A stretch of DNA of 64,000 nt, taken from positions 4,659-68,658 of the IMG/VR virus record IMGVR_UViG_3300012521_000003; one strand, written 5' to 3'. The first letter of the stretch is position 1. Every line of letters begins with the position of its first letter. This DNA is from a virus. Position numbers and translations under genes: made by a program. Below, piece by piece: positions 17,395 through 18,938 of the stretch. The notes under the pieces were generated by a model. That model was not told the origin of the DNA. It ran no database searches and worked only from the letters and a program-made list of their open reading frames with translations.

Positions 17395-17968
17395 AGTCTA
17401 GTATCTCCCTTAAGTCTTTTATTCTGTAGACTCCGTTTTCAAGGTAGCCTTGATTGTACTGGTTATCGACTAGGAAAGCTTTATAATTCCATCTCGCTAC
17501 CGAGTTGGCATAATAGCGGTGGTCGTCAACCAGGAAGCGAAGATTCGGCGCCTTGGTGAGAACTTCGACATACTTATTCTTACCGAAGATTATACCGTCG
17601 TAGGGGAGCTTGTTCTTGGAGAGCCAGTCCGTCGTTTGCTTGAACAGACTCTTATGCTCTTCGAAGGGCCTGGAGGTTATGATAAGTATTGTGTATCCCA
17701 TATGTTTGAGCTCTTTAAGGGTCTCTTTAGCCCCCGCCCTTACTTTTAGATTTGCCTTAACTCCCGACTCTCTATACTCATACTTGAGGTCCCTATATAA
17801 TTGGTATGGGATGTTCCTCTTCGCGTCATTAAGATCCCGATACTTCTCTGCGGAGTTCCGGTTTATAAACTCTACCCAGGGGTCCGGGTAGTAGTTTAGT
17901 ACCCCATCGACATCAAAAGCGCAGATTTTCTGGTCCTGCTCATCCTCCCATCGATTTTGCATATTCAT
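17375..17968 (-). CDS. HAD-superfamily 5'(3')-deoxyribonucleotidase-like phosphatase
   Basis: FDVDGVL motif I, ITSR motif II, K, LVDD motif IV. Confidence 0.85.
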   Translation of the reverse strand: MNMQNRWEDEQDQKICAFDVDGVLNYYPDPWVEFINRNSAEKYRDLNDAKRNIPYQLYRDLKYEYRESGVKANLKVRAGAKETLKELKHMGYTILIITSRPFEEHKSLFKQTTDWLSKNKLPYDGIIFGKNKYVEVLTKAPNLRFLVDDHRYYANSVARWNYKAFLVDNQYNQGYLENGVYRIKDLREILDYEFVRY

Positions 17969-18938
17969 CAGCCTCCCTGATTATGTCGTTTATCTTTATA
18001 GAGTGCTGCCATCTTGCGAACCTGCCACAGAGCTTAAGCCTATTCCCGTAATGGTCTGGATCGTCGAGTCCGAGCTCCAGGACGTTGTGGTTATATCTTA
18101 ACTGACAGAACCTTATGACATCTAACTCTAGAGCTTCTACAGGCAACTGATGGATATAACCCCAAGCGATCTCAGCGACGTCACTTCTGAATTCTATACA
18201 GTACTCATTATTCCCTATCCGAGTGATCCTGTTTATTGGCGTATTGATACCTGTACAGTAGAGATAATCATAGCCTCTGGTTAGATCCACCTCAGTATAC
18301 ACTCTTACGAATTCGGTGTCATAGGCAGACAGATCGAGCTCGGCTAGATTTTTATGAGGCTTGACTATATTACCCCGATCATCCTGTGTTAAGTAGAAGA
18401 TGTCCCTCAGGTCCTGCCTTATAAGCTTCGACAGAGTTCTAAGATTAATAGTAGAGATCCCATCATAGACGGGTAGACAAGCCTTTGACCCATTGCCGAG
18501 ATATATATCGACTTTATTCTCAGAGAAGTCAATACTATCCACATATCCATTGGTGTAGTCAACTCTTCTTATGAGGTTATCCACAAGCTCTATCTCGTTA
18601 ATGTCCCAGCCTATGATTGTTGTGTTACCTCCGCTCATAACACTGGGGGGTACATCAGCTTCTCTACCCCTAGTCTTAAGATAGTAATTGGCCCTCTCTT
18701 CCTCGGTAGCTGTACCGGTCACCAATCCGTCGTCATTCAGATAGCCTACGGTAAAAGCCCTTGGCTTAGCCTTAATACCGAGGCTCTTTAGTAGCGATAT
18801 AGAAGCTTCATCAACTTCGAGTATCCTAGGACCTTTTGTAAACCCCCTCATCTGGCCCCCGATATAGAGACCATATACTGGGCTATTTAATTTATAGCCC
18901 AGTATCAGTCCACTTATTCCTGCTCCTAGTATGTACAT
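17940..18938 (-). CDS. FAD-dependent oxidoreductase, UDP-galactopyranose mutase/HemY-like
   Basis: ILGAGISG dinucleotide-binding motif; C-terminal LCGRFARWQH resembling the Glf GR(L/F)A.Y/W motif. Confidence 0.7.
   Translation of the reverse strand: MYILGAGISGLILGYKLNSPVYGLYIGGQMRGFTKGPRILEVDEASISLLKSLGIKAKPRAFTVGYLNDDGLVTGTATEEERANYYLKTRGREADVPPSVMSGGNTTIIGWDINEIELVDNLIRRVDYTNGYVDSIDFSENKVDIYLGNGSKACLPVYDGISTINLRTLSKLIRQDLRDIFYLTQDDRGNIVKPHKNLAELDLSAYDTEFVRVYTEVDLTRGYDYLYCTGINTPINRITRIGNNEYCIEFRSDVAEIAWGYIHQLPVEALELDVIRFCQLRYNHNVLELGLDDPDHYGNRLKLCGRFARWQHSIKINDIIREADEYAKSMGG

What the first reader, a model, noticed from the sequence alone, without database searches (positions are those of the whole stretch)
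17940..18938. UDP-galactopyranose-mutase-like flavoprotein inside a nucleotide operon
Seen: N-terminal GAGISG, central STINL and RIT motifs, C-terminal GRFARW. Known: Glf/UGM enzymes interconvert NDP-pyranose and furanose sugars, and arabinose-modified cytosine is known in RB69-type phages. Inference: it may supply a furanose donor for glycosylation of a base, with the adjacent HAD phosphatase as a partner. The family call is by eye; it could be another HemY-like oxidoreductase.
Basis: inference. Interest (0 to 1): 0.62.

Follow-up and report, generated by a model that had tools for sequence, protein, structure and literature searches.

The report
Virus-only mutase-like flavoprotein in nucleotide cassette
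This phage gene encodes a small flavin-binding protein whose nearest known relatives are sugar-ring mutases (UGM), but it belongs to an unnamed, virus-only family that is always coupled to a deoxynucleotide phosphatase inside a pyrimidine-nucleotide gene set, so it probably helps build an altered DNA base by chemistry nobody has tested.

Summary
Window 17940-18938 (- strand) is a real 332-aa gene with the four motifs as described.

The "UGM-like" call is partly right.
- The AF2 model (pLDDT 94) matches T. cruzi UDP-galactopyranose mutase best: Z 21.4, against 17.6-19.6 for protoporphyrinogen oxidases.
- A family profile finds only eukaryote-type UGMs in the PDB at E <= 1e-3 (best 9e-6). The family's invariant Arg237 aligns with the Arg I recall (from memory) as UGM's catalytic Arg327.

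It is nevertheless not a UGM.
- Pfam GLF gives no match.
- The His of the UGM "GAHIF" motif is Arg.
- A domain-sized part of UGM has no counterpart.

The protein belongs to a large unnamed family (868 clusters), 95-100% viral in the ESM Atlas. In 10 divergent phage lineages the gene overlaps a deoxyribonucleotidase-type HAD gene. In the 13 loci with both flanks it travels with a ThyX-like gene, a Tmk-like kinase and an all-alpha NTP pyrophosphatase; 12 of 13 also have a minimal dCMP-type TS-fold gene.

I detected no glycosyltransferase among the ORFs scanned in this complete 72.6-kb genome, so a furanose-donor role is unsupported here.

Most likely it performs a flavin-dependent step on a phosphorylated pyrimidine-nucleotide intermediate; the chemistry is unknown.

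The scan has already noted this cassette in at least eight other genomes.

The parts
17940..18938 (-). The finding: 332-aa compact FAD-type Rossmann protein, UGM/PPO/amine-oxidase superfamily, unnamed virus-only family (P0001)
   Evidence: ORF and motifs. No Pfam, PHROG or NCBIfam hit. Family of 868 clusters. AF2 pLDDT 94. Best fold match is UGM 4dsg, Z 21.4. The profile hits only eukaryote-type UGMs in the PDB at E <= 1e-3.
17375..17968 (-). Partner gene: 197-aa HAD phosphatase of the 5'(3')-deoxyribonucleotidase (NT5C) type; its start overlaps the target's stop by 23-29 nt
   Evidence: Pfam NT5C 31.8 bits, above the 24.8 cut-off. DxDG, T/S, K and DD motifs conserved. Model pLDDT 90; best Foldseek hits are deoxyribonucleotidases 3bwv, 2i7d and 4mum. 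A homolog directly follows the target homolog in every locus with downstream DNA.
18962..20014 (-). Divergent ThyX-fold protein, 350 aa, directly upstream
   Evidence: Pfam Thy1 E 2.6e-16, below the NCBIfam thyX cut-off. Homologs at E 1e-35 to 1e-147 in 13 of 13 loci with both flanks, and in L002.
16906..17394 (-). Tmk-like P-loop nucleotide kinase, 162 aa
   Evidence: Pfam Thymidylate_kin E 2.4e-7. Present in 13 of 13 loci with both flanks; fused to the minimal TS-fold protein in L003, L014 and L013.
16328..16918 (-). Minimal TS-fold protein B, 196 aa, dCMP-type
   Evidence: phrog_160. Catalytic Cys and the Arg-Ser pair conserved; Asp at the position of E. coli ThyA Asn177. Homologs in 12 of 13 loci.
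20026..20682 (-). TS-fold protein A, 218 aa, dCMP-type; lineage-specific (window and L002 only)
   Evidence: Pfam Thymidylat_synt E 1.7e-11. Asp at the ThyA Asn177 position and Glu at Asp169. Found only in W and L002.
20692..21354 (-). All-alpha NTP pyrophosphatase (dUTPase_2 / MazG-like), 220 aa; in most related phages this domain is fused to the N-terminus of the HAD
   Evidence: Pfam dUTPase_2 E 1e-16. The fusion is seen in the L003-L015 proteins of 303-349 aa.
15831..16328 (-). dCMP deaminase, 165 aa
   Evidence: Pfam dCMP_cyt_deam_1 E 5e-13. Present in 9 of 13 loci. A family member, P0057/P0282, carries this domain fused to the flavoprotein.

Best explanation
Shown: the gene encodes a compact (about 290-335 aa) flavoprotein-fold protein of a large, unnamed, essentially virus-only family. 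The family branched from the UGM/PPO/amine-oxidase superfamily and is nearest to UDP-galactopyranose mutase.

Inferred, substrate binding: it keeps the Rossmann motif expected to bind FAD, the Arg I recall as UGM's catalytic Arg (R237), the neighbouring Tyr (Y227) and the C-terminal GR-aromatic motif. In UGM, as far as I recall, these residues hold the diphosphate next to the flavin. It has lost most of what I take to be UGM's uridine-binding helical domain. In its place it has a family-specific basic motif (Y85-x-x-K88-x-R90) plus R38.

Inferred, function: it binds a different phosphorylated, sugar-bearing ligand. That ligand is most likely a deoxypyrimidine nucleotide or a derivative made by the neighbouring enzymes. 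The protein carries out one flavin-dependent step on it: either covalent N5 catalysis as in UGM and ThyX, or a dehydrogenation. It works together with the translationally coupled deoxyribonucleotidase-type HAD.

Inferred, pathway: the pair is the constant core of a phage cassette. The other members are an NTP pyrophosphatase, a minimal dCMP-type TS-fold enzyme, a Tmk-like kinase, a ThyX-like enzyme and often a dCMP deaminase. The cassette probably makes a non-canonical pyrimidine for phage DNA.
For: Fold: model pLDDT 94. Best match is UGM 4dsg at Z 21.4 with 307 of 332 residues aligned; PPOs score 17.6-19.6.

Sequence:
- A profile of 65 members hits only eukaryote-type UGMs in the PDB at E <= 1e-3 (best 9e-6). 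R237, Y227 and Y225 align with the Arg, Tyr and Trp of the A. fumigatus motif W-L-Y...R.
- The C-terminal GRYAQW.H motif aligns with GGRLAEYKY of bacterial UGM.
- GPRIL aligns with GAHIF.
- Y85, K88, R90, T163, Y227, R237, E249, Q279, G305 and R306 are 86-100% conserved among 159 members.

Context:
- TARGET, HAD, Tmk-like, ThyX-like and dUTPase_2 are present in 13 of 13 loci with both flanks; the minimal TS-fold gene in 12 of 13.
- The HAD gene overlaps the target's stop in 10 lineages whose target proteins are only 17-59% identical to one another.
- Fused forms exist with the HAD (P0081) and with dCMP deaminase (P0057, P0282).
- The HAD is nucleotidase-type.
- The TS-fold partners have the dCMP-type Asp.

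Distribution: family clusters are 95-100% viral.
Against: No cofactor, substrate or product has been shown. The window protein lacks the acidic residue at the end of beta-strand 2 that most members have, so FAD binding itself is inferred. Gene linkage does not prove that the flavoprotein acts on a nucleotide. The P0081 fusion is a singleton on a 4.5-kb contig and could be a frameshift artefact of two overlapping genes. Most related cassettes also carry an RmlD-like SDR, and RmlD enzymes act on nucleotide-sugars. That points towards a sugar substrate rather than a plain dNMP. The active-site reading rests on sequence alignment and on UGM residue roles recalled from the literature, not on a superposition with ligands.
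Confidence: 0.45

Rival explanations
1. One reading: a true NDP-sugar pyranose-furanose mutase with a minimised nucleotide-binding site. It would supply a furanose donor (Galf, Araf or similar) for glycosylation of a modified base.
For: The best fold and only clear PDB profile matches are UGMs, and the aligned Arg, Tyr and C-terminal motif are kept. 11 of 14 related loci carry an RmlD-like nucleotide-sugar SDR in the same gene run. Rhizobium phage RL38J1 uses a phage UGM to put Galf-derived sugar on 5-hydroxycytosine (PMC13326640). Pbunavirus 14-1 has a distant homolog, gp66 (hhalign probability 96.9), and Pbunavirus DNA carries thymidine adducts of pentose or tetritol mass (PMC12191111).
Against: Pfam GLF gives no match even at E 10 while the control genomes ring, and 0 of 65 members hit GLF. 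The His of the GAHIF motif is Arg in 94% of members. 105-166 UGM residues have no counterpart. No glycosyltransferase was detected among the ORFs scanned in the complete 72.6-kb genome, and this phage has no SDR. The coupled HAD is nucleotidase-type, not GmhB-type. The 14-1 homolog is very distant, lacks the GGQ and GPRIL motifs, and is not next to a related HAD. No gene has been assigned to the Pbunavirus adduct.
Confidence: 0.2
2. A redox helper: an NAD(P)H-dependent flavin reductase or oxidase that keeps the neighbouring flavin enzymes reduced. These would be the ThyX-like protein or a flavin-dependent TS-fold hydroxylase of the 5-hydroxy-dCMP synthase kind.
For: It co-occurs with the ThyX-like gene in 13 of 13 loci with both flanks and with a minimal TS-fold gene in 12 of 13. 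TS homologs that make 5-hydroxy-dCMP bind an FMN-like flavin and use O2 (PMC13326640). The minimal TS-fold proteins of L006 and L007 carry that paper's diagnostic Asn at the ThyA Asp169 position.
Against: The fold is not that of known flavin reductases. The conserved Arg, Lys and Tyr cluster and the UGM-type Arg suggest a phosphorylated substrate, not free flavin. The tightest coupling is to the HAD nucleotidase, not to ThyX or the TS-fold gene. The window's own TS-fold proteins have Asp or Glu, not Asn, at the diagnostic position.
Confidence: 0.15
3. A HemY/PPO-like or amine-oxidase-like oxidoreductase acting on a non-nucleotide metabolite (an auxiliary metabolic gene), placed in the operon by chance.
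For: PPOs are the second-best fold matches, Z 17.6-19.6. The ESM Atlas neighbours beyond the family are small amine-oxidase/PPO-type proteins.
Against: No Amino_oxidase Pfam match in any of 65 members. The profile finds UGMs, not PPOs, at significant E-values. Linkage to nucleotide genes is conserved across lineages with 17-59% identity, and fusions to the HAD and to the deaminase exist. The family is virus-only.
Confidence: 0.05

Closest known systems
UDP-galactopyranose mutase, eukaryote type (T. cruzi 4dsg; A. fumigatus 3uka, 3ukh)
   Same: Best structural match: Z 21.4, rmsd 3.6 over 307 residues. These are the only PDB sequences found by the family profile at E <= 1e-3 (best 9e-6). Shared features are the N-terminal GxGxxG, the ST motif, the aromatic-x-Tyr...Pro-x-x-Arg segment and a GR-aromatic C-terminal motif.
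   Different: The target has 332 residues against 473-519. 166 residues of 4dsg are unaligned. I take the missing part to be the helical uridine-binding domain, but that assignment was not checked by superposition. The position I recall as the His-loop histidine is Arg38. The basic motif Y85-K88-R90 is family-specific. Identity is 13%. No activity is known.
Bacterial UDP-galactopyranose mutase Glf (E. coli K-12 b2036; Pfam GLF PF03275)
   Same: N-terminal Rossmann, GG and G-x-[H/R]-I-[F/L] segment. C-terminal GR[LFY]A-x-[YW]-x-[YH] motif. Fold Z 17.0 (3hdq) and 15.8 (4mo2).
   Different: No Pfam GLF match. hhalign finds only short motif-level matches, probability 4-17%. Only 260 of 365 residues align structurally.
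Protoporphyrinogen oxidase (HemY/PPO; 2ivd, 4ivm, 1sez, 3i6d)
   Same: Same superfamily fold, Z 17.6-19.6.
   Different: No Amino_oxidase Pfam hit. PDB profile E-values are 0.4 or worse. A tetrapyrrole substrate is implausible in a nucleotide operon.
Canonical phage UGM of Rhizobium phage RL38J1 (gp084) in the glycosyl-5-hydroxycytosine pathway (PMC13326640)
   Same: A phage combining a dCMP-type TS homolog, a nucleotide kinase and a UGM-fold protein in a base-modification pathway.
   Different: RL38J1 gp084 is a standard UGM with strong matches to 4rpl, P37747 and 5er9 in that paper, and it sits with three DNA glycosyltransferases. The window protein is not a standard UGM, and no glycosyltransferase was detected here.
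Pbunavirus nucleotide module (Pseudomonas phage 14-1 gp60 ThyX-like, gp66 hypothetical protein)
   Same: gp66 is a distant homolog of the family: hhalign probability 96.9, E 1.9e-10, 205 columns. gp60 resembles the window's ThyX-like protein at E 1e-10, including a Cys-rich segment. Pbunavirus DNA carries sugar-mass thymidine adducts (PMC12191111).
   Different: gp66 lacks the GGQ and GPRIL motifs. It is not adjacent to a related HAD, and gp58 is not detectably homologous to it. The preprint does not assign genes to the adduct.

Membership tests
UDP-galactopyranose mutase (EC 5.4.99.9; Pfam GLF PF03275) | N-terminal FAD-binding Rossmann motif GxGxxG followed by a GG motif | tested here: met
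   G5, G7 and G10 are 95-98% conserved, and G27-G28-Q29 86-92%. This segment aligns with E. coli Glf residues 3-63. 16 of 65 members hit NAD_binding_8.
UDP-galactopyranose mutase (EC 5.4.99.9; Pfam GLF PF03275) | Match to the Pfam GLF model | tested here: not met
   No hit for the protein. No match in the whole genome at E <= 10, while 6 of 14 control genomes ring. 0 of 65 family members match at E <= 1.
UDP-galactopyranose mutase (EC 5.4.99.9; Pfam GLF PF03275) | Conserved histidine of the G-[AG]-H-[IV]-[FI] loop next to the flavin | tested here: not met
   hhalign places GPRIL on GAHIF of E. coli Glf, so Arg38 takes the His position. Arg is present in 94% of 159 members.
UDP-galactopyranose mutase (EC 5.4.99.9; Pfam GLF PF03275) | Catalytic arginine that holds the diphosphate (A. 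fumigatus R327, K. pneumoniae R280; numbering from memory) | tested here: met
   R237 is invariant and aligns with the Arg of the A. fumigatus segment P-F-Y-R. By eye it also aligns with P-Y-T-R-I of E. coli Glf.
UDP-galactopyranose mutase (EC 5.4.99.9; Pfam GLF PF03275) | Full three-domain architecture including the helical uridine-binding domain | tested here: not met
   332 aa against 367-519. Only 260 of 365 residues (3hdq) and 307 of 473 residues (4dsg) have structural counterparts. The model has only short helices (79-90, 101-104, 118-123) in the stretch where the domain should be. Which UGM domain is missing was not checked residue by residue.
UDP-galactopyranose mutase (EC 5.4.99.9; Pfam GLF PF03275) | C-terminal G-R-x-x-x-Y-x-Y motif (FAD and phosphate contacts) | tested here: inconclusive
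   GRFARWQH aligns with GGRLAEYKY, but only at hhalign E 0.0015 and probability 17%. Tyr is replaced by His312. A profile of the C-terminal part alone found no UGM in the PDB.
UDP-galactopyranose mutase (EC 5.4.99.9; Pfam GLF PF03275) | Pyranose-furanose interconversion of an NDP-sugar by reduced FAD | not testable with these tools
   Needs an enzyme assay.
Protoporphyrinogen oxidase / flavin amine oxidase (Pfam Amino_oxidase PF01593) | Match to the Amino_oxidase model | tested here: not met
   No hit for the protein. 0 of 65 members match at E <= 1. PPO chains score only E 0.43-2.9 with the family profile.
Protoporphyrinogen oxidase / flavin amine oxidase (Pfam Amino_oxidase PF01593) | Superfamily fold | tested here: met
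   Z 17.6-19.6 to PPOs and 14-17 to amine oxidases, all below UGM 4dsg.
5'(3')-deoxyribonucleotidase, NT5C (for the partner HAD at 17375-17968) | Pfam NT5C above cut-off, intact DxDG / T / K / DD catalytic motifs, and the cdN/mdN fold | tested here: met
   31.8 bits against a 24.8 cut-off. Motifs are invariant in 10 homologs. Best Foldseek hits are 3bwv (E 4e-8), 2i7d and 4mum (TMq 0.69); GmhB 4pnh scores TMq 0.56. Substrate not tested.

The most novel reading that the evidence does not exclude
The flavoprotein acts on the sugar ring of a pyrimidine nucleotide itself, not on a separate NDP-hexose. It would either use flavin N5 at the anomeric carbon, as UGM does, or oxidise a ring hydroxyl that the RmlD-like SDR of related phages then reduces. 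The second route is an oxidase-plus-reductase epimerisation in the manner of DprE1/DprE2. The coupled 5'-nucleotidase would process the product. The result would be a DNA precursor altered in its sugar, or a sugar-derived group joined to the base at the nucleotide stage.
Probability: 0.08. Interest if true: 0.9.

Novelty: new variant of a known kind. Interest (0 to 1): 0.6.

Why it matters
Phage DNA hypermodification pathways are a source of new enzymology and decide whether a phage escapes restriction and CRISPR. This flavoprotein-nucleotidase pair is the constant core of a widespread cassette: 868 sequence clusters, almost all viral. Four tblastn queries found no match in 50,697 deposited phage genomes. 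It has no Pfam, PHROG or NCBIfam model and no assigned chemistry.

It appears to derive from a sugar-ring mutase but has swapped its nucleotide-binding part and lost a hallmark histidine. Its partners are two other flavin or TS-fold enzymes that are also atypical. Working out its reaction would probably reveal a new way of making a non-canonical pyrimidine. It might also help assign genes to the still unexplained sugar-mass thymidine adducts of the therapeutic Pbunavirus phages, which carry a distant homolog.

Tried and rejected
- The search for related loci with A1, P0008 and P0013 in viral contigs found nothing. A2 and A1 were too divergent to give a search pattern. The single metagenome scan returned one 1.8-kb contig.
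- tblastn of four different family members against 50,697 deposited phage genomes gave no match.
- A search for longer fused forms (603 aa or more) found none.
- phmmer of the protein, or of its C-terminal 58 residues, against PDB sequences gave only noise. A profile of the C-terminal motif alone did not find UGM.
- hhalign against E. coli Glf or a bacterial UGM profile gave only motif-level matches. Membership in the bacterial Glf family was therefore rejected.
- PaMx11 gp47, the known flavin-dependent lyase of thymidine hypermodification, was considered and set aside. The paper describes it as MnmC1-like (PMC8989533), which I take to be a different flavoprotein family.
- Phage 14-1 gp58 is not detectably related to the window's HAD, so the Pbunavirus module is only a distant parallel.
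- A glycosyltransferase was looked for by Pfam and PHROGs among the larger ORFs of the whole genome and was not detected. Several ORFs of 200-270 aa remain unannotated, so absence is not proven.
No residue-level superposition on liganded UGM could be made.
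Full report
**The observation**

The window has one ORF at 17940-18938 on the - strand. It has an ATG start, encodes 332 aa, and has an AGGGGG ribosome-binding site 7-8 nt upstream.

They are not chance strings. In an alignment of 159 relatives, G5, G7, G10, T163, R237, G305 and R306 are 95-100% conserved. The gene is packed in a - strand run:
- dimeric-dUTPase/MazG-like pyrophosphatase (20692-21354)
- TS-fold protein A (20026-20682)
- ThyX-fold protein (18962-20014)
- the target
- HAD phosphatase (17375-17968)
- Tmk-like kinase (16906-17394)
- TS-fold protein B (16328-16918)
- dCMP deaminase (15831-16328)

The record is an IMG/VR virus contig of 72,643 bases that CheckV rates as complete. 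Its DNA polymerase resembles those of Clostridium and Bacillus phages at only about 30-34% identity.

**What the protein is**

It has no Pfam, PHROG or NCBIfam match. It has no single-sequence match to any PDB chain.

A word-based search found 13 relatives. A profile search over 1.84 billion representatives found 868 clusters, 250 of them at E <= 1e-30. The 150 best hits are mostly 280-340 aa. The nearest ESM Atlas clusters are unnamed and 95-100% viral. Four family members used as tblastn queries found nothing in 50,697 deposited phage genomes.

AlphaFold2 on the family alignment gave a confident model: pLDDT 94.2, pTM 0.90. Foldseek places it in the amine-oxidase/PPO/UGM flavoprotein superfamily. 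An exhaustive VIA-align scan of 48,161 chains gave this ranking:

| Structure | Z | Aligned residues |
|---|---|---|
| T. cruzi UDP-galactopyranose mutase 4dsg | 21.4 | 307 of 332 (rmsd 3.6) |
| Four protoporphyrinogen oxidases | 17.6-19.6 | about 290 |
| Bacterial UGM 3hdq | 17.0 | 260 |
| Bacterial UNGM 4mo2 | 15.8 | 256 |
| Renalase 3qj4 | 15.5 | 267 |

Sequence agrees with fold. A profile of 65 members finds eukaryote-type UGMs as its only PDB matches at E <= 1e-3 (A. fumigatus 9e-6, T. cruzi 9e-5). Apart from one putative L-amino-acid oxidase at E 0.001, every other family lies at 0.1 or worse.

In that alignment the family segment Y-x-Y...P-x-x-R lies on the A. fumigatus segment W-L-Y...P-F-Y-R. 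So the invariant R237 and Y227 correspond to what I recall from the UGM literature as R327 and Y317. I recall these as the catalytic arginine and a diphosphate-binding tyrosine.

Against E. coli Glf (fetched, translated) profile comparison aligns only two short stretches. One is the N-terminus, where GPRIL lies on GAHIF. The other is the C-terminus, where GRYAQW.H lies on GGRLAEYKY (E 0.0015).

**Why it is not a UGM**
- Pfam GLF does not match anywhere in the genome even at E 10, while the same search rings in 6 of 14 control genomes. None of 65 members matches GLF or Amino_oxidase.
- The histidine of the GAHIF loop is Arg38, in 94% of members.
- At least 105 residues of bacterial UGM and 166 of the T. 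cruzi enzyme have no counterpart.
- The stretch where I expect UGM's helical uridine-binding domain holds only three short helices. It carries a family-specific basic motif: Y85 100%, K88 89%, R90 96%.

The protein therefore keeps what I take to be the UGM parts that sit at the flavin and the diphosphate. The part that recognises the nucleotide handle has been replaced.

**Context**

A sub-alignment gave patterns that retrieved 14 IMG/VR loci. I called ORFs, clustered them and searched them with the window's operon proteins.

Among the 13 loci with DNA on both sides, counting the window:
- the flavoprotein, the HAD, a Tmk-like kinase, a ThyX-like protein and a dUTPase_2 domain are present in 13 of 13
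- a minimal TS-fold protein like the window's protein B in 12 of 13
- dCMP deaminase in 9 of 13

In all 10 distinct lineages the HAD gene starts inside the last 4-77 nt of the flavoprotein gene. Yet the flavoproteins are only 17-59% identical to one another. In most lineages the HAD carries the dUTPase_2 pyrophosphatase domain fused at its N-terminus.

Natural fusions point the same way:
- P0081 joins the flavoprotein to the NT5C-type HAD. Its C-terminal part matches the window's HAD at E 3.9e-48. It is a singleton on a 4.5-kb contig and could be a frameshift artefact.
- P0057 and P0282 join the flavoprotein to a dCMP deaminase domain, on three contigs.
- The minimal TS-fold protein and the kinase are fused in L003, L014 and L013.

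Most related phages use DnaE. They also carry an RmlD-like SDR in the same run. The window's PolA-type phage does not.

**The partner**

The HAD scores above the Pfam NT5C cut-off. Its DxDG, T, K and DD motifs are invariant. Its model (pLDDT 90) matches deoxyribonucleotidases best: 3bwv at E 4e-8, and human cdN 2i7d and mdN 4mum at TMq 0.69. The heptose-bisphosphate phosphatase 4pnh reaches only TMq 0.56.

A phosphatase that resembles human mitochondrial deoxyribonucleotidase in structure is the dTMP phosphatase of the uracil-DNA phage PBS1 (PMC12697855).

**The other partners**

Aligned with E. coli ThyA, both window TS-fold proteins and the minimal ones of the related loci keep the catalytic Cys and the Arg-Ser pair. 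All have Asp where ThyA has Asn177, which is the cytosine-type signature. The L006 and L007 proteins also have Asn at the Asp169 position. A 2026 paper uses that residue to identify flavin-dependent 5-hydroxy-dCMP synthases (PMC13326640). The window's proteins have Asp and Glu there.

**Is a sugar donor plausible?**

For:
- PMC13326640 shows that Rhizobium phage RL38J1 encodes a canonical UGM next to DNA glycosyltransferases and a 5-hydroxy-dCMP synthase.
I checked that lead. Phage 14-1 gp66 is a distant homolog of the family: hhalign probability 96.9, E 1.9e-10. Its gp60 resembles the window's ThyX-like protein at E 1e-10.
- A preprint reports that about a quarter of the thymidines of F8 and 14-1 are replaced by nucleosides of 362 and 390 Da. 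It reads these as tetritol and cyclic pentose derivatives (PMC12191111). It assigns no genes.

Against:
- gp66 lacks the GGQ and GPRIL motifs and is not beside a related HAD.
- I detected no glycosyltransferase among the larger ORFs of the whole 72.6-kb genome by Pfam or PHROGs.
It has no mutase.

**Verdict**

The fold and family assignment are firm: a virus-only offshoot of the UGM lineage, not a UGM and not a PPO. The functional link to the nucleotidase and to deoxypyrimidine metabolism is well supported by conserved overlap and by fusions.

The chemistry is inferred. I think a flavin-dependent step on a phosphorylated pyrimidine-nucleotide-type intermediate is most likely (0.45). The rivals are a true NDP-sugar mutase (0.2), a redox helper for the neighbouring flavin enzymes (0.15) and an unrelated oxidoreductase (0.05).

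Earlier notes of this scan describe the same flavoprotein, nucleotidase and ThyX-like set in at least eight other genomes. None of them shows any chemistry.

Noticed in passing
L006:14772-15338 and L007:14906-15421: The minimal TS-fold proteins of these two related phage contigs have Asn at the E. coli ThyA Asp169 position and Asp at Asn177. PMC13326640 uses this signature to identify 5-hydroxy-dCMP synthases. L009 and L004 have His there; the window's proteins have Asp and Glu. The cassette may make different C5 groups in different lineages.
   Followed up: partly
L011:12120-13031: The Tmk-like kinase is fused to a uracil-DNA-glycosylase-superfamily domain: Pfam UDG E 2.7e-15.
   Followed up: no
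L003:16993-18015, L014:16993-18015, L013:7291-8358: The minimal TS-fold protein and the Tmk-like kinase are fused into one protein of 340-355 aa. This argues that the kinase takes the TS-fold product.
   Followed up: partly
window 8720-9430 (-): A second, more ordinary ThyX (Pfam Thy1 E 1.5e-27, 236 aa) lies 10 kb from the ThyX-like gene. The profile match stops at position 153 of 191.
   Followed up: no
L019:870-1511 (genome 69369-70010, just outside the window): A second HAD-like gene of 213 aa, with weak PHROG hits to the same families as the operon's HAD: phrog_1238 and phrog_415.
   Followed up: no
L009:12733-13896 and its counterparts in 11 of 14 loci: An RmlD-like SDR (NCBIfam rmlD E 2e-21, below cut-off) sits inside the cassette of the DnaE-type phages. 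It is absent from the window's PolA-type phage.
   Followed up: partly
window 7289-7798 (-) and 25703-26317 (-): Two sigma-70-family genes (regions 2 and 4) lie in the replication module. Together with an Amidase_3 lysin at 59278-60198, this fits a phage of Gram-positive hosts.
   Followed up: no
L007:13932-14918, L015:14398-15270, L006:14192-14800, L005:12476-13246: SAM-methyltransferase-type genes are inserted in the cassette in several lineages.
   Followed up: no
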